This document shows positions 10,220-29,239 of a DNA stretch of 29,239 bases, piece by piece. Under the pieces are notes generated by a model. That model was not told where the DNA came from. It searched no databases and saw only the letters and a list, made by a program, of their open reading frames with translations. Each line of letters starts with the position of its first letter. The first letter of the stretch is position 1. Origin of the DNA: Oculatellaceae cyanobacterium bins.114 (lineage in GTDB: Bacteria > Cyanobacteriota > Cyanobacteriia > Elainellales > Elainellaceae); NCBI GenBank assembly GCA_033764315.1, contig JANRJA010000165.1:1-29239 (forward strand), read 5' to 3'. The position numbers and the translations under genes were made by a program.

Positions 10220-11305
10220 ATGAACATTTCGAGACGGACTTTTATGAGAGCTGGGCTAGGGGCAGGCAGTGCCCTAACAGCGATCGCCCTTGGTTCTCTA
10301 GGTCAGGCTCAATCAGGCTTGGCTCAAGGAACCACCCGTCGTCCTGCTCAGGGAGGGGTACTTAATCTCTACTCAGCGCGTCATTACGACACAGACGATT
10401 CCCTCTACAGCAGCTTTTCTGATCGCACTGGGGTGCAAATTAACCTGGTCGAAGCGGATGCTGATCAACTCATCGAACGGATCAAAAGCGAAGGAGCCAA
10501 TAGCCCTGCGGATGTTTTGATGACCGTTGATGCTGGGCGGCTGTGGCGTGCTCAACAGGATGGCTTGTTTCAACCGATTGCCTCAAGTGTTCTCGAACAG
10601 GCCATTCCTGCCAATTTAAGAGAGCCTCAAGGCAATTGGTTTGGCTTGTCTAAACGAGCACGGGTGATTGTTTACAACAAAGACCGGGTGAACCCAGCAG
10701 AACTCTCAACCTATGAGAATTTGGTTGATTCCAAATGGCGAGAACGCATTTTAGTGCGCTCATCAACAAACATCTACAACCAATCCTTGACCGGAGCAAT
10801 TTTGGCCGCTATTGGCTCTCAAGCCACAGAGCAATGGGCTAGAGGCTTAGCCGCTAACTTTGCTCGTCCACCAGAAGGCAATGACACGGCTCAAATTCAA
10901 GCGGTTGCCGCAGGTGTAGGAGATTTGGCGATCGTGAATACTTACTATGTAGCGCGGTTGGCAAAATCTCAGAACCCAGAAGAGCGGGCGATCGCAGAGC
11001 AAGTGGGTATTTTCTTCCCCAATCAGCGCGATCGTGGTACTCATGTCAACATCAGCGGCGCAGGAGTGCTTCGGACAGCCCGCAACAAAGATGCAGCCAT
11101 TCAGTTTCTCGAACACTTGGTTAGCCCTCAAGCGCAAGAAATCTTTGCGTTAGGCAATAACGAGTATCCAGTTGTAGCCGGAGCACCCATTGACTCCACC
11201 ATTCGTGGGTTTGGGCAATTCCGCGAAGACACGGTGAATGCGGCTGTGTTTGGGCGCAACAACGCTGAAGCACTGCGAATCATGGATCGCGCTGGTTGGC
11301 GGTAG
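10220..11305 (+). CDS. futA: Fe(III) ABC transporter periplasmic binding protein (FutA/IdiA), Tat-exported
   Basis: SRRTFM twin-arginine signal; [49 protein letters not shown]. Confidence 0.96.
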
Positions 11306-26988: not shown

Positions 26989-27060
26989 ATGTCCCGGCAG
27001 GATTTGAACCTGCAACCCTCTGTTTGTAAGACAGATGCTCCACCCTTGAGCTACAGGACT
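26989..27060 (-). tRNA. trnV: tRNA-Val(TAC), 1:72 mismatch, possibly degenerate
   Basis: Anticodon arm TCTGT-CTTACAA-ACAGA; T arm GCAGG-TTCAAAT-CCTGC; acceptor AGTCCTG/CGGGACA; no CCA. Confidence 0.8.
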
Positions 27061-27065
27061 ACGAG

Positions 27066-27137
27066 AGCGGATGATGGGACTCGAACCCATGCGCTGAGTG
27101 TGGCGCACTCAGATGCTTGCCGCTACATCACACCCGC
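27066..27137 (-). tRNA. trnG: tRNA-Gly(GCC) with C33
   Basis: TGAGT-GCGCCAC-ACTCA; acceptor GCGGGTG/CATCCGC; U73; no CCA. Confidence 0.8.
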
Positions 27138-27143
27138 ATTTTT

Positions 27144-27218
27144 TGGAGCGAAAGACGAGATTCGAACTCGTGTCTCCTGGTTGGAAGCCAGGGATGCTTG
27201 CCGCTGCACCACATTCGC
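27144..27218 (-). tRNA. trnG: tRNA-Gly(TCC)
   Basis: CCTGG-CTTCCAA-CCAGG; U73-CCA. Confidence 0.9.
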
Positions 27219-27222
27219 ATTC

Positions 27223-27298
27223 TGGGGCTGGTGACAGGATTTGAACCTGCAACCTTTCGCTTACAAGGCGATTGCTCTTCCGACTGAGCTACACCAGC
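27223..27298 (-). tRNA. trnT: tRNA-Thr(TGT)
   Basis: TCGC-CTTGTAA-GCGA; acceptor GCTGGTG/CACCAGC; C73-CCA. Confidence 0.92.
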
Positions 27299-27301
27299 AT
27301 A

Positions 27302-27374
27302 AGCAGATGGCGAGGCTTGAACTCGCGTCCAGGACATACCAAATCCTGATGCTGACCGACTACACCACATCTGC
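27302..27374 (-). tRNA. trnT: tRNA-Thr(GGT)
   Basis: AGGAT-TTGGTAT-GTCCT; acceptor GCAGATG/CATCTGC; U73; no CCA. Confidence 0.82.
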
Positions 27375-27377
27375 ATT

Positions 27378-27452
27378 TGGAGCAGGTGACAGGAGTTGAA
27401 CCTGCATGAAGGCTGTACGAAAACCTCATGTTGCCCGTTACATCACACCTGC
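27378..27452 (-). tRNA. trnT: tRNA-Thr(CGT)
   Basis: AGGTT-TTCGTAC-AGCCT; acceptor GCAGGTG/CACCTGC; U73-CCA. Confidence 0.85.
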
Positions 27453-27458
27453 ATTGGT

Positions 27459-27556
27459 TGGACGCGGGGGTGAGAGTTGCACTCACCGTTGCGAAGCACT
27501 CCCGAAGGGAACCGCAGCTTATGAGACTGCTGAGCCGCTCTTGCTCTATCCCCGCT
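27459..27556 (-). tRNA. atypical tRNA with CAT anticodon (Met/fMet/Ile2 unresolved), 27-nt variable region
   Basis: AGCGGGG-ATA-GAGC-AAGAGCG-GCTC-A-GCAGT-CTCATAA-GCTGC-[27 nt]-GTGAG-TGCAACT-CTCAC-CCCCGCG-T-CCA. Confidence 0.75.
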
Positions 27557-27557
27557 A

Positions 27558-27631
27558 TACCCCCGGCGAGAGTCGAACTCGCAACAATCCGGGTTTAAGC
27601 CGGGTACGTCTGCCAATTGCGTCACAGGGGC
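27558..27631 (-). tRNA. trnL: tRNA-Leu(TAA), short variable loop
   Basis: CCGG-CTTAAAC-CCGG; variable TTGTT; G1.U72, A73; no CCA. Confidence 0.85.
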
Positions 27632-27634
27632 ATT

Positions 27635-27710
27635 TGGTGGGTTGTATAGGGTTTGAACCTATGCACTTCCGCTTAAGAGGCGGCTGCTCTACCAACTGAG
27701 CTAACAACCC
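27635..27710 (-). tRNA. trnK: tRNA-Lys(CTT)
   Basis: CCGC-CTCTTAA-GCGG; acceptor GGGTTGT/ACAACCC; A73-CCA. Confidence 0.93.
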
Positions 27711-27741
27711 GTTTTTCTGCTAGTCAACCGAAGGTTGAACT

Positions 27742-27817
27742 TGGTGGGTCGCCAGAGATTTGAACTCTGATCTGTCTGCTTAAAAGGCAGCCACTCTAAC
27801 CGTTGAGCTAACGACCC
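27742..27817 (-). tRNA. trnK: tRNA-Lys(TTT)
   Basis: CTGC-CTTTTAA-GCAG; acceptor GGGTCGT/GCGACCC; A73-CCA. Confidence 0.9.
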
Positions 27818-27820
27818 GAA

Positions 27821-27895
27821 TGGTCTGAGTGATAGGGATTGAACCTACGACCTCCGGTTCCCCGAACCGACGTGCTCCCACTGCACCACACTCAG
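27821..27895 (-). tRNA. trnP: tRNA-Pro(GGG) with C33
   Basis: TCGGT-TCGGGGA-ACCGG; C1-G72; A73-CCA. Confidence 0.82.
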
Positions 27896-27900
27896 ATATG

Positions 27901-27978
27901 TGGTACACCGAGCAGGAGTTGAACCTGCTAATAACACGCTTATCGGGCGTGCGCGTCCACCACTTCCGCCTTCGGTGC
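27901..27978 (-). tRNA. trnI: tRNA with GAT (Ile) anticodon, C33, Leu-like body
   Basis: CACGC-CCGATAA-GCGTG; D arm GCG-GAAGTGGTGGA-CGC; G1.U72; A73-CCA. Confidence 0.75.
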
Positions 27979-27979
27979 T

Positions 27980-28055
27980 TGGTACTCCCGGTGGGAATCG
28001 AACCCACAAAATCTAGATCCTCGGTCTAGAGCGTCTTCCCTTCCGCCACAGGAGC
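27980..28055 (-). tRNA. trnL: tRNA-Leu(GAG) with C33, short variable loop
   Basis: CTAGA-CCGAGGA-TCTAG; variable ATTTT; G1.U72; A73-CCA. Confidence 0.8.
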
Positions 28056-28060
28056 ATCAG

Positions 28061-28134
28061 TACCCTTGGTGGGAGTCGAACCCACAAAATCTGGTCTCTC
28101 AAGCCAGCACGTCTGCCAGTTGGGTCACAAGGGC
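28061..28134 (-). tRNA. trnL: tRNA-Leu(GAG) with U33, short variable loop
   Basis: CTGGC-TTGAGAG-ACCAG (C31.A39 mismatch); variable ATTTT; A73; no CCA. Confidence 0.78.
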
Positions 28135-28137
28135 AAA

Positions 28138-28213
28138 TGGTCGGGATGGTAGGATTTGAACCCACGACTCCTTGGTCCCAAACCAAGGCTTCTGACCACT
28201 GAATTACATCCCG
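28138..28213 (-). tRNA. trnP: tRNA-Pro(TGG)
   Basis: CTTGG-TTTGGGA-CCAAG; acceptor CGGGATG/CATCCCG; A73-CCA. Confidence 0.93.
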
Positions 28214-28218
28214 ATACT

Positions 28219-28298
<80 letters not shown>

Positions 28299-28300
28299 AT

Positions 28301-28377
28301 TGGTACTCCTGGCAGGAGTCGAACCCGCACATGACTGGTTTTGAGACAGCTGCCTCTTCCGATTGGGCTACAGGAGT
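28301..28377 (-). tRNA. trnL: tRNA-Leu(CAA), short variable loop
   Basis: GCTGT-CTCAAAA-CCAGT; variable CATGT; acceptor ACTCCTG/CAGGAGT; A73-CCA. Confidence 0.85.
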
Positions 28378-28383
28378 GAGACA

Positions 28384-28428
28384 TGGGAGGAATACAGGGG
28401 ACTGCCCCAGGCGACTGTTTACCTCCCA
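28384..28428 (-). ncRNA. non-tRNA structured element embedded in the array
   Basis: TGGGAGG...CCTCCCA 7-bp stem enclosing ACAG/CTGT and GGGG-CAGT-CCCC pairings; no T-loop or anticodon arm. Confidence 0.4.
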
Positions 28429-28429
28429 A

Positions 28430-28501
28430 CTGCCCCGCCAGGGTTTAAACCTGGAACTTCGCTTTCAAAGAGCGAGATGTTGCCAGTTACACCACAAGGC
28501 A
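28430..28501 (-). tRNA. trnQ: tRNA-Gln(TTG)
   Basis: TCGCT-CTTTGAA-AGCGA; U1-A72; G73; T loop TTTAAAC; no CCA. Confidence 0.85.
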
Positions 28502-28507
28502 TTGAAT

Positions 28508-28584
28508 TGGATGCCGAGGCTGGGGTCGAACCAGCATCTCCGTGATTCAGAGTCACAGCGACTTTCCATGTCGTCCACTCGGCA
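28508..28584 (-). tRNA. trnQ: tRNA-Gln(CTG)
   Basis: TGTGA-CTCTGAA-TCACG; acceptor TGCCGAG/CTCGGCA; U73-CCA. Confidence 0.85.
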
Positions 28585-28589
28585 ATGAA

Positions 28590-28664
28590 TGGCTGCCCCA
28601 GCAGGACTTGAACCTGCAACCTCGCGGTTAACAGCCGCTCGCTCTGCCATTGAGCTATAGGGCA
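28590..28664 (-). tRNA. trnN: tRNA-Asn(GTT)
   Basis: GCGG-CTGTTAA-CCGC; U1-A72; G73-CCA. Confidence 0.93.
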
Positions 28665-28669
28665 ATGAG

Positions 28670-28742
28670 TGGGAAGTGACGGGATCGAACCGCCATCTCG
28701 CCGTCTTCAGCGGCACGTGAGCACCAGCTTCACCAACTTCCC
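28670..28742 (-). tRNA. trnF: tRNA-Phe(GAA)
   Basis: TGCCG-CTGAAGA-CGGCG; acceptor GGGAAGT/ACTTCCC; A73; no CCA. Confidence 0.85.
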
Positions 28743-28747
28743 ACAAG

Positions 28748-28835
28748 CGGAGGCTAAGAGAATCGAACTCTTGACGGTATATTTCACCCGCAGGCGTTTT
28801 CAAGACGCTTTCCTCGTCCGTGCCGGACAACCTCC
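28748..28835 (-). tRNA. trnS: tRNA-Ser(TGA)
   Basis: GCGT-CTTGAAA-ACGC; long variable arm; acceptor GGAGGTT/AGCCTCC; G73; no CCA. Confidence 0.85.
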
Positions 28836-28840
28836 CTGTT

Positions 28841-28917
28841 TGGCGAGGACGGAGGGACTCAAACCCCCACTCTTCAGGTTCGTAATCTGAGATGTTGTTC
28901 AGTTACACCACGTCCTC
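28841..28917 (-). tRNA. trnR: tRNA-Arg(ACG)
   Basis: TCAGA-TTACGAA-CCTGA; acceptor GAGGACG/CGTCCTC; A20; G73-CCA. Confidence 0.85.
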
Positions 28918-28922
28918 AAAGG

Positions 28923-29003
28923 CGGAGAGTAGTGGAATCGAACCACAATTGTTCATCCATCTGTTTAGCAAACAGCGCCAACGTCCTAATTGGTTTACTC
29001 TCC
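28923..29003 (-). tRNA. trnS: tRNA-Ser(GCT)
   Basis: CTGT-TTGCTAA-ACAG; acceptor GGAGAGT/ACTCTCC; G73 followed by CCT; weakly paired 12-nt variable arm. Confidence 0.78.
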
Positions 29004-29008
29004 ATGAT

Positions 29009-29093
29009 TGGTAGGTCGGGCAGGAGTCGCACCTGCAACGCAAGAAGCGGCTGTTTTACAGACAGTTGCCCACGCTGATAGGCGAGCCGACCT
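29009..29093 (-). tRNA. trnY: tRNA-Tyr(GTA), non-canonical D/T loops
   Basis: CTGT-CTGTAAA-ACAG; 13-nt variable arm; T loop TGCGACT; acceptor AGGTCGG/CCGACCT; A73-CCA. Confidence 0.82.
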
Positions 29094-29103
29094 ATGTCGA
29101 ATT

Positions 29104-29180
29104 TGGCAGTGCCGACGGGAGTTGAACCCGCAAACGCAGCATTGAAAGTGCTGTGGCTTTACCGATTTGCCTACGGCACC
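29104..29180 (-). tRNA. trnE: tRNA-Glu(TTC)
   Basis: CAGCA-CTTTCAA-TGCTG; acceptor GGTGCCG/CGGCACT; G73-CCA. Confidence 0.88.
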
Positions 29181-29239
29181 AAACTTTGAGATTTCTACAG
29201 CGTGCAAGTTTGAGAAGCTGTTTTTTCAGCCTCCAGGGT

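What the first reader, a model, noticed from the sequence alone, without database searches (positions are those of the whole stretch)
27066..28055. Four G34 tRNAs replace the near-invariant U33 with C
Seen: anticodon loops Gly GC-GCC-AC, Pro TC-GGG-GA, Ile CC-GAT-AA and Leu CC-GAG-GA, three of them consecutive (27821-28055). Their anticodon stems are fully paired and three encode CCA. The other 22 genes keep U33, including all four G34 tRNAs of split two-codon boxes (Tyr, Phe, Asn, Ser-GCT). Known: U33 forms the anticodon U-turn. Inference: recurrence only before G34 in family or Ile boxes argues against random decay. It suggests C33-to-U editing as an activation switch, altered wobble or frame maintenance, or evasion of anticodon nucleases.
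Basis: partly seen in the sequence, partly recalled or inferred. Interest (0 to 1): 0.85.

Follow-up and report, generated by a model that had tools for sequence, protein, structure and literature searches.

The report
Conserved C33 tRNAs in cyanobacterial array
Four spare tRNA genes in a cyanobacterial back-up tRNA cluster really carry C instead of the almost universal U next to the anticodon, and related clusters keep this C, so it is an inherited, selected variant and neither decay nor a visible trace of RNA editing.

Summary
The window's end holds a long tRNA array (L-array) related to the Anabaena trn operon. Gly-GCC, Pro-GGG, Ile-GAU and Leu-GAG have C33. They are the only 4 non-U33 genes among 68 tRNAs found in this genome.

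The C is inherited. After removing known duplicates, 64 related array loci showed C33 in Ile-GAU 33/33, Pro-GGG 12/12 and Leu-GAG 30/33. Gly-GCC was mixed: 18 C, 16 U, 2 A. A metagenome scan with position 33 left open gave C in 15/15 Pro-GGG matches. These genes keep the cloverleaf through compensatory changes, and Ile-GAU is the best-conserved gene of the array. Housekeeping counterparts in a complete genome of the same family all have U33.

The G34 link holds only partly. Thr-GGU, Ala-GGC and Ser-GGA keep U33, and sporadic C33 also occurs before U34 or C34.

I found no support for C-to-U editing. RNA-library contigs show no listed change at the four sites, and no deaminase gene lies nearby.

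The function is untested. My best guess is altered recognition by enzymes that read the anticodon loop.

This scan has noted C33 in other mobile tRNA arrays before. I found no paper describing it.

The parts
26989..29180 (-). Window part of a long tRNA array (L-array): 24 ARAGORN genes plus 2 degenerate ones. The contig ends at 29239, so the 5' part of the array lies elsewhere.
   Evidence: Gene order and sequence match arrays in related genomes and on plasmids, including the Nostoc sp. PCC 7120 delta plasmid.
27065..27137 (-). tRNA-Gly(GCC), loop GC-GCC-AC. C33 is the + strand G at 27105. G32 and C38 could form a Watson-Crick pair. No encoded CCA.
   Evidence: RF00005 score 42.7 bits. Orthologues are mixed: 18 C, 16 U, 2 A over de-duplicated loci.
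27821..27895 (-). tRNA-Pro(GGG), loop TC-GGG-GA. C33 is the + strand G at 27864. Encodes CCA. C1-G72 and A73.
   Evidence: RF00005 57.6 bits. C33 in 12/12 loci and in 15/15 metagenome pattern matches.
27901..27978 (-). tRNA-Ile(GAU), loop CC-GAT-AA. C33 is the + strand G at 27945. Encodes CCA. It has a Leu-type D arm, A8, G1-U72 and A73. Its anticodon arm is that of an ordinary Ile-GAU tRNA except for C33.
   Evidence: RF00005 44.9 bits. C33 in 33/33 cyanobacterial array matches of a pattern with N at position 33. Mean identity to 20 other arrays is 98.8%, the highest of all array genes.
27980..28055 (-). tRNA-Leu(GAG), loop CC-GAG-GA. C33 is the + strand G at 28023. Encodes CCA. Class I shape (no long extra arm) with a housekeeping-Leu-type D arm.
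   Evidence: RF00005 52.2 bits. There are 21 unique C33 orthologues; 99.3% of stem cells pair and 5 pairs show changes on both sides.
28060..28134 (-). Second tRNA-Leu(GAG) with U33 (loop TT-GAG-AG). It is the orthologue of Leu-CAG in other arrays, with a private C34-to-G change and a broken D stem.
   Evidence: Environmental contigs carry the CAG and GG states at 28100 and 28122-28123.
29013..29092 (-). Degenerate tRNA-Tyr(GUA)-like gene with U33 and an altered T loop.
   Evidence: RF00005 28.1 bits, just under the cut-off. Sequence.
27453..27556 (-). Degenerate CAU-anticodon tRNA-like gene with a long extra arm and U33. It corresponds to Met(CAT) in other arrays.
   Evidence: Sequence. ARAGORN and Rfam do not call it here. 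It is called at this position in other arrays.

Best explanation
The four genes belong to a horizontally spreading cyanobacterial long tRNA array (L-array) of the same family as the stress-induced trn operon of Anabaena/Nostoc sp. PCC 7120. In this family, four gene lineages (Ile-GAU, Pro-GGG, Leu-GAG and one Gly-GCC lineage) carry C33 as an inherited state.

Shown here: the C is kept across many arrays, the genes evolve under cloverleaf constraint, and the housekeeping counterparts have U33.

Inferred:
- These are working spare tRNAs (my odds about 0.7).
- A cytidine, probably protonated at N3, still makes the sharp turn before the anticodon, so decoding remains possible.
- The C is kept because it changes how proteins that read the anticodon loop see these tRNAs (my odds about 0.3). 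One concrete predicted consequence is that Ile-GAU would lack t6A37, because the E. coli TsaBCDE enzymes reject a U33C tRNA. A second possible consequence is escape from, or different handling by, anticodon-loop nucleases that are induced together with the array.

I see no C-to-U editing switch.
For: The array belongs to the L-array family.
- 24 + 2 same-strand genes lie in 2.2 kb.
- The window matches named cyanobacterial plasmid arrays, including NC_003273.1, with the same gene order.
- Contig C117 carries the 5' genes of such an array. Upstream lies an HNH gene whose product is 84% identical to that of the gene upstream of the Nostoc 7120 array. Clustered TGTAGTAT boxes, the published TrcR site (PMC10272220, passages), are also there: 16 matches against 4.7 expected, reached by 0 of 200 shuffles.

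C33 is inherited.
- Unique sequences from 81 array loci: Ile-GAU 10/10 C, Pro-GGG 9/9 C, Leu-GAG 21/24 C, Gly-GCC 12 C / 14 U / 1 A.
- Per locus after removing known duplicates (64 loci): 33/33, 12/12, 30/33, and 18 C / 16 U / 2 A.
- Patterns with N at position 33: 33 C among cyanobacterial arrays in 185,579 species genomes. The 3 U matches were two non-cyanobacterial MAGs, only one with a readable tRNA 5' half, and an ordinary Ile tRNA on a viral contig. The metagenome scan for Pro-GGG gave 15/15 C.

There is constraint on the genes.
- In the Leu-GAG C33 clade, loop positions 32, 37 and 38 vary but 33 never does.
- In that clade 99.3% of stem cells pair and 5 pairs have changes on both sides. 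0 of 500 shuffles reach the observed covariation score.
- Ile-GAU and Pro-GGG are the two best-conserved genes of the array (98.8% and 94.5%).

Housekeeping counterparts have U33.
- 0 of 37 non-array tRNAs in this genome have a non-U33.
- 42 of 42 unique tRNAs in a complete genome of the same family have U33, including Gly-GCC, Pro-GGG, Ile-GAU and Leu-GAG.

Literature.
- E. coli TsaBCDE cannot modify a U33C tRNA (PMC8887486, passages).
- A protonated C can replace the U of a U-turn (PMC6061696, abstract and passages).
- 23 of 26 Anabaena operon tRNAs are charged in vivo and some are cleaved during stress (PMC8421152, sections 21 and 24).
Against: - No experiment shows that any C33 tRNA is matured, charged or used. 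The studied Anabaena array has no C33 gene that ARAGORN finds; its Leu-GAG has U33 and a damaged T arm. The published charging data therefore do not cover these genes.
- Gly-GCC switches between C, U and A, which fits a tolerated variant.
- Sporadic C33 appears in other genes: Val-UAC, Tyr-GUA, Glu, Leu-UAG, Ile-UAU and Phe.
- In Anabaena the operon tRNAs tested were cleaved while the housekeeping ones were not (PMC8421152, section 24). That is the opposite of simple nuclease evasion.
- One tested anticodon nuclease, yeast gamma-toxin, cuts a U33C stem-loop as well as the wild type (PMC2275089).
- The sequences are related, so the counts overstate the number of independent events.
Confidence: 0.55

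Rival explanations
1. Tolerated, nearly neutral variant. A protonated C33 is isosteric with U33. It arose a few times, was fixed by drift or hitch-hiking in a mobile array, and has no purpose of its own.
For: - Gly-GCC orthologues carry C, U or A.
- Isolated C33 occurs in at least six other gene types.
- C can replace U in U-turns (PMC6061696).
Against: - There are 75 locus-level copies of Ile-GAU, Pro-GGG and Leu-GAG with C33. Only 3 Leu-GAG copies have U33, and two of those three are a damaged gene or a copy derived from Leu-CAG.
- The neighbouring loop position 32 switches freely between C and U in the same Leu-GAG clade.
- 15/15 metagenome matches have C.
Confidence: 0.22
2. Decoding tuner. 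C33 weakens or reshapes the anticodon loop of G34 tRNAs. This would adjust G-U wobble reading, ribosome affinity or frame keeping, in the way the 32-38 pair tunes strong anticodons.
For: - The long-lived C33 lineages all have G34.
- U33 contacts bases 35 and 36 in the decoding site (PMC5041475, passages).
- Two of the four anticodons are all G+C.
- Positions 32 and 38 of Gly-GCC and Pro-GGG can form a Watson-Crick pair.
Against: - No simple strength rule fits. The weak Ile-GAU always has C33, while the strong Ala-GGC (4/4) and also Thr-GGU (12/12) and Ser-GGA (5/5) keep U33.
- Nothing here measures decoding.
Confidence: 0.12
3. C33-to-U33 editing as an activation switch. The gene encodes an inactive C33 form, and a deaminase converts it to U33 when needed.
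For: Only the analogy with C-to-U tRNA editing in other organisms, which I recall and did not look up. The array is stress-regulated in Anabaena (PMC8421152).
Against: - In contigs of three metatranscriptome libraries that cover the array, none of the 40 listed differences lies at 27105, 27864, 27945 or 28023, although nearby differences carried by the same contigs are listed. 79 rows were not shown, the samples are unmatched, and precursors or DNA may dominate.
- No deaminase domain appears in the ORFs I scanned on either side.
- No 'pre-edited' U33 orthologues exist for Ile-GAU or Pro-GGG.
Confidence: 0.04
4. Not ordinary translation. The C33 species act as decoys for tRNA-cutting toxins. 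Alternatively, Ile-GAU, which has a Leu-type body, accepts the wrong amino acid.
For: - The authors of PMC8421152 propose a sponge role and saw cleavage of operon tRNAs only (sections 24 and 29).
- Ile-GAU has the D arm of housekeeping Leu tRNAs plus A8, and it is unusually invariant.
- C33 should block t6A37. I recall that t6A37 helps IleRS recognition.
Against: - The identity marks I recall for GlyRS, ProRS, LeuRS and part of the IleRS set are present in the sequences.
- Three of the four encode CCA and all fold as cloverleaves.
- No data exist on which amino acid they carry.
Confidence: 0.07

Closest known systems
L-arrays of tRNA genes. The model is the trn operon on the delta plasmid of Anabaena/Nostoc sp. 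PCC 7120 (Santamaria-Gomez et al. 2021, PMC8421152; TrcR control, PMC10272220; tRNA array units, Tran et al. 2016, PMC4758250).
   Same: - Long same-strand run of supernumerary tRNA genes.
- Same gene order, with 77.7% identity over the shared parts.
- Many genes encode CCA.
- An HNH gene (84% identical product) and TGTAGTAT boxes lie upstream on C117.
- Patchy distribution, partly on plasmids.
   Different: - ARAGORN finds no C33 gene in the Nostoc 7120 array. Its Leu-GAG has U33, and Ile-GAU and Pro-GGG are not found at their expected place.
- The words U33, C33 and 'position 33' do not occur in the main text of these three papers. Their supplements could not be read.
Phage and mobile tRNAs with changed anticodon loops that escape tRNA-cutting defences (van den Berg et al. 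2023, eLife, PMC10264068; related papers seen only in the listing).
   Same: Spare tRNAs on a mobile element whose anticodon loops differ from those of the host's own isoacceptors.
   Different: - No nuclease, cleavage site or resistance is known for these four.
- Position 33 is not mentioned in that paper's main text.
- The array here sits next to ordinary chromosomal genes, not in a phage.
Natural non-U33 tRNAs: C33 in cytoplasmic initiator tRNA-Met of multicellular eukaryotes and G33 in Candida tRNA-Ser(CAG) (Grosjean and Westhof 2016, PMC5041475, passage; PMC8887486).
   Same: A conserved departure from U33 in a working tRNA. C33 affects t6A37 formation in systems used to U33.
   Different: Those are one initiator and one recoding tRNA in eukaryotes. 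Here there are four bacterial elongator-type tRNAs for Gly, Pro, Ile and Leu in a mobile array.

Membership tests
L-array / trn-operon family of cyanobacteria | Long run of same-strand tRNA genes with short spacers, far more than gene accretion would give | tested here: met
   24 ARAGORN genes plus 2 degenerate ones lie in 2.2 kb on the minus strand, with spacers mostly 2-10 nt.
L-array / trn-operon family of cyanobacteria | Supernumerary to a dispersed housekeeping tRNA set | tested here: met
   The genome holds dispersed copies of the same anticodons, for example Gly-GCC on C52 and Leu-GAG on C139. The draft is 90.7% complete.
L-array / trn-operon family of cyanobacteria | Sequence and gene-order homology with the Nostoc sp. 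PCC 7120 delta-plasmid array | tested here: met
   Hit H13 on NC_003273.1 covers 31% of the query at 77.7% identity. The shared gene order runs Asp-Glu...Gln-Gln-Leu-Pro-Leu...Lys-Leu-Met-Thr-Gly-Val.
L-array / trn-operon family of cyanobacteria | HNH endonuclease gene and TrcR-type boxes upstream of the first tRNA | tested here: inconclusive
   Both are present on contig C117, upstream of Asp-GUC. C117 overlaps the last roughly 210 bases of the window at only 83% identity. It may therefore be a second copy and not the continuation of this array.
L-array / trn-operon family of cyanobacteria | Patchy, horizontally spread distribution, often on plasmids | tested here: met
   11 of 401 sampled genomes of the phylum match the Leu-Ile-Pro block. 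Named plasmid records appear.
L-array / trn-operon family of cyanobacteria | Silent in normal growth, induced by translational stress, tRNAs charged in vivo | not testable with these tools
   Only RNA-library contigs from unrelated environmental samples cover the array. They cannot show induction or charging.
Nuclease-insensitive mobile tRNAs | Anticodon loop differs from the host's own isoacceptor | tested here: met
   Array versus housekeeping loops are GCGCCAC / TTGCCAA (Gly), TCGGGGA / TTGGGGT (Pro), CCGATAA / CTGATAA (Ile) and CCGAGGA / TTGAGGG (Leu).
Nuclease-insensitive mobile tRNAs | A host or competitor nuclease cuts the U33 form, and the variant resists it | not testable with these tools
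The literature is mixed. CdiA-CT EC536 cuts tRNA-Ile(GAU) between positions 32 and 33 (PMC11724271). Gamma-toxin is indifferent to U33C (PMC2275089).
tRNA C-to-U editing system | RNA shows U where the gene has C | tested here: inconclusive
   No listed G>A on the + strand at the four sites in three RNA libraries. These are contigs only, 79 rows were hidden, and there is no matched DNA.
tRNA C-to-U editing system | A dedicated deaminase linked to the substrate genes | tested here: not met
   Pfam scans covered 7 window ORFs within about 10 kb of the array and 4 ORFs upstream on C117. They find aroB, a radical SAM protein, an NB-ARC/Ig-like protein, GH57, HNH and a PAS/GAF histidine kinase, and no deaminase. 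The rest of the genome was not searched.

The most novel reading that the evidence does not exclude
C33 is a deliberate 'stealth' mark of back-up tRNAs. It would make selected array isodecoders invisible to enzymes that depend on U33, such as the t6A37 synthase and anticodon-loop tRNases induced in the same stress response. The array would then supply a set of decoders independent of modification and proof against those nucleases. In the extreme form, the invariant Ile-GAU, with its Leu-type body, its C33 and therefore no t6A37, would be charged partly with leucine. It would then cause programmed Ile-to-Leu mistranslation under translational stress.
Probability: 0.12. Interest if true: 0.85.

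Novelty: new variant of a known kind. Interest (0 to 1): 0.5.

Why it matters
U33 is treated as nearly invariant in elongator tRNAs. A review I read lists only eukaryotic initiators and one Candida tRNA as exceptions (PMC5041475). Here, three bacterial elongator-type tRNA lineages keep C33 across dozens of arrays, in the same array family that has an experimental model.

This offers natural, paired C33/U33 isodecoders. For Ile-GAU the loop differs from the housekeeping copy only at position 33. Such pairs can test what the U-turn uridine really contributes to modification, to attack by nucleases and to decoding. They can also test how mobile tRNA sets are insulated from host enzymes.

The finding also warns annotators not to call such genes pseudogenes.

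Tried and rejected
- RNA evidence. The single run search found no run holding half or more of the stretch's words, and all runs are kept as contigs. The laid contigs come from unrelated soil, litter and biofilm samples. The table of differences was cut (79 rows hidden) and DNA may be present in the RNA libraries. It gives no support for editing but is not proof against it, and parts without cover mean nothing.
- Using the Anabaena experiments directly. ARAGORN finds no C33 gene in the Nostoc 7120 array. I could not locate the 'operonic tRNA-Ile(GAU)' that PMC8421152 names (section 21). Its figures and supplements were not available.
- Codon-strength rule (a lead from note e1-3038327). It does not fit this array family: Ile-GAU has C33 and Ala-GGC has U33.
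- Uridine-free loops as armour against U-specific nucleases. This fits Gly (GCGCCAC) and one Leu type (CCGAGGA). It does not fit Pro (TCGGGGA) or the other Leu type (TCGAGAG).
- A shifted reading register, with C33 as the first anticodon base. This gives inconsistent amino acids and no turn nucleotide, so I rejected it by inspection.
- Phage origin. The Leu-GAG loop pattern has 0 matches in IMG/VR. Of the 2 IMG/VR matches to the Ile pattern, one is an ordinary U33 Ile gene in an unrelated array; ARAGORN calls no Ile gene on the other.
- Other L-arrays. Four named plasmid loci were looked at. Only a Mycobacterium plasmid array had a clear C33, in Tyr-GUA. The sample is too small for any rule.
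- Puerto-Galan and Vioque 2012 is not held, so I cannot say whether it mentions position 33.
Full report
WHAT IS THERE

The last 2.2 kb of the window (26989-29180, minus strand) is a dense run of tRNA genes. ARAGORN. Two more degenerate ones fill the gaps. One is Tyr-GUA-like at about 29013-29092, scoring 28.1 bits against RF00005, just under the 29-bit cut-off. The other is a CAU gene with a long extra arm at 27453-27556.

The window is contig C69 of a 6.6-Mb, 251-contig assembly, and it ends inside the array. Contig C117 begins with a near-copy of the window's last roughly 210 bases. It has identical flanks but a different Glu-UUC arm and a 26-base indel, 83% identity overall. C117 then runs through Trp, Met, Cys, Arg-CCG, Glu-CUC and Asp. 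It is either the continuation across an assembly bubble or a second copy.

The loops are GC-GCC-AC (Gly), TC-GGG-GA (Pro), CC-GAT-AA (Ile) and CC-GAG-GA (Leu). All four anticodon stems pair fully. Pro, Ile and Leu encode CCA.

These four are the only non-U33 genes among the 68 tRNAs ARAGORN finds in the genome. In the window, C33 occurs in 4 of 10 G34 genes and 0 of 16 others (Fisher p = 0.014).

That second Leu-GAG is the orthologue of Leu-CAG in every other array. It carries a private C34-to-G change and a broken D stem. Environmental contigs show the CAG state at those places.

WHAT KIND OF ARRAY

The stretch matches arrays in 40 of 40 related genomes at some level, and long syntenic arrays in about a dozen of them. 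It also matches named cyanobacterial plasmids. Kovacikia minuta pA matches at 82% over the whole query. The delta plasmid of Nostoc sp. PCC 7120 carries the studied trn operon (PMC8421152, abstract and sections 18, 21, 24, 29 read).

On C117, upstream of Asp-GUC, lies an HNH endonuclease gene. Its product is 84% identical to that of the gene upstream of the Nostoc 7120 array. Between that gene and the first tRNA are clustered copies of TGTAGTAT. This is the TrcR repressor site described for the trn promoter (PMC10272220, passages).

This is therefore a member of the L-array family. In this genome it sits next to ordinary genes: aroB, a radical SAM protein and others.

C33 IS INHERITED

I ran ARAGORN on 81 array loci. 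They came from relatives, a phylum sample, named plasmids and a pattern scan of 185,579 species genomes.

Among the 1008 unique tRNA sequences:
- Ile-GAU: 10/10 C33
- Pro-GGG: 9/9 C33
- Leu-GAG: 21/24 C33
- Gly-GCC: 12 C, 14 U, 1 A

Per locus, after dropping stretches fetched twice (64 loci, some duplicates may remain), the counts are 33/33, 12/12, 30/33, and 18 C / 16 U / 2 A.

The Ile pattern had N at position 33, so it was not biased towards C. It returned 33 C, all in cyanobacterial arrays. The 3 U matches were two non-cyanobacterial MAGs, only one with a readable tRNA 5' half, and an ordinary Ile tRNA on a viral contig. A like pattern for Pro-GGG in the metagenome collection gave 15/15 C.

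The three U33 Leu-GAG genes are the window's copy derived from Leu-CAG, the Nostoc 7120 gene (whose T stem is damaged) and its Nostoc HK-01 relative.

THE GENES ARE UNDER CONSTRAINT

- In 21 unique C33 Leu-GAG sequences, loop positions 32, 37 and 38 vary and position 33 never does.
- 99.3% of stem cells pair, and five pairs changed on both sides. No shuffle of 500 reaches the observed covariation.
- Pro-GGG and Ile-GAU also show compensatory changes.
- Ile-GAU is the best-conserved gene of the whole array, with 98.8% mean identity to 20 arrays. Pro-GGG is second at 94.5%.
- The housekeeping versions have U33. In a complete genome of the same family, 42 of 42 unique tRNAs have U33, including all four anticodons. 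For Ile-GAU the two loops differ only at position 33.

THE G34 LINK

C33 occurs in 56 of 288 unique G34 sequences and 8 of 720 others. These sequences are related, so the contrast is inflated. Grouping the rows into lineages myself gives about 7 of 13 origins before G34, where 29% would be expected (binomial p = 0.049).

The long-lived lineages are all G34. Yet Thr-GGU (12/12), Ala-GGC (4/4) and Ser-GGA (5/5) keep U33, an extra Tyr-GUA copy has C33, and sporadic C33 precedes U34 or C34. I regard G34 as a tendency, not a rule. Neither a codon-strength rule nor a uridine-free-loop rule fits these data.

EDITING

Contigs of three metatranscriptome libraries and one DNA run cover the array. One RNA-library contig of 612 bases spans Leu-UAA to the Leu pair.

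None of the 40 listed differences lies at 27105, 27864, 27945 or 28023, although differences at nearby places in the same contigs are listed. The table was cut, the samples are unmatched, and precursors or DNA may dominate. This is absence of support, not disproof.

No deaminase domain lies in the ORFs I scanned on either side.

HOW IT MAY WORK (INFERRED)

A protonated cytidine can take the place of the U in a U-turn (PMC6061696), so decoding may be retained.

What must change is recognition by proteins that read the loop. E. coli TsaBCDE fails on a U33C tRNA (PMC8887486), so Ile-GAU-C33 is predicted to lack t6A37.

Loop nucleases differ in their response. One CDI toxin cuts tRNA-Ile(GAU) between positions 32 and 33 (PMC11724271). 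Gamma-toxin ignores U33C (PMC2275089). In Anabaena the operon tRNAs that were tested were cleaved and the housekeeping ones were not (PMC8421152, section 24). That fits a decoy role better than evasion.

I therefore commit only to 'selected variant that alters loop recognition', at about 0.3. The fallback is a neutral variant, at about 0.2.

WHAT IS KNOWN

A review states that departures from U33 are exceptional and names eukaryotic initiators and Candida tRNA-Ser (PMC5041475).

My searches and word searches in the main text of four key papers found no description of C33 in bacterial tRNA arrays. The supplements and the 2012 paper by Puerto-Galan and Vioque could not be read.

This scan has noted C33 in phage, planctomycete, acidobacterial and actinobacterial arrays before. 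Those are unchecked AI notes. Within the scan, then, this is a repeat on new DNA. What it adds is the array family that has an experimental model, and three lineages in which C33 never reverts.

Noticed in passing
window 27557-27632, 27980-28055, 28060-28134, 28219-28377; also L031 and other arrays: All 'Leu' tRNAs of the array are about 75-78 nt long with a 4-5 nt variable loop. They are class I in shape and lack the long extra arm. They still keep the 3-bp D stem and 11-nt D loop of the genome's own 81-84-nt Leu tRNAs, and A73.
   Followed up: partly
window 27901-27978: Ile-GAU combines a Leu-type D arm, A8 in place of U8, G1-U72 and an ordinary Ile anticodon arm. It is almost invariant across arrays (98.8%), while its neighbours diverge to 70-85%. 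It may have a dual identity or some extra constraint.
   Followed up: partly
window 28060-28134: This is a private anticodon switch from CAG to GAG, with two D-stem changes. Other arrays, and the environmental DNA and RNA contigs, carry the CAG and GG states.
   Followed up: yes
G000:C117 (L066) 1209-1258, 1771-2340, 2603-2653: An HNH endonuclease gene lies upstream of the array's first tRNA; its product is 84% identical to the Nostoc 7120 one. Clusters of TGTAGTAT boxes lie both between it and the tRNAs and upstream of it. A Mycobacterium plasmid array also holds an HNH gene.
   Followed up: partly
G000:C117 (L066) 10809-11217: A lone tRNA-Ala(UGC) is preceded by a remnant of the Val-UAC 3' half and a third cluster of TGTAGTAT-like boxes. 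It looks like a detached tail of an array.
   Followed up: no
window 29031-29239 versus G000:C117 1-230: The two contig ends overlap with identical flanks but a different Glu-UUC anticodon arm and a 26-base indel. This points to two array copies or an assembly bubble.
   Followed up: partly
L149 1640-1716; L152 6785-6861: A stand-alone tRNA-Pro(GGG) with C33 and the same anticodon arm, but an ordinary body, lies beside an integrase gene. Many small ORFs and an HNH gene are nearby. It occurs in two metagenome contigs, outside any array.
   Followed up: partly
L075, L080, L097, L153; L108: An extra, short Tyr-GUA copy with C33 (loop TCGTAAA) recurs after Trp in four cyanobacterial arrays. A Mycobacterium plasmid array also has a C33 Tyr-GUA.
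   Followed up: no
Gly-GCC orthologues, e.g. L001 versus L053 and L076: The two main forms differ at positions 32, 33, 38 and 39 together: GCGCCAC followed by A39, versus CTGCCAG followed by T39. Positions 32 and 38 stay Watson-Crick complementary (G-C or C-G) in both forms, which is unusual for an anticodon loop.
   Followed up: no
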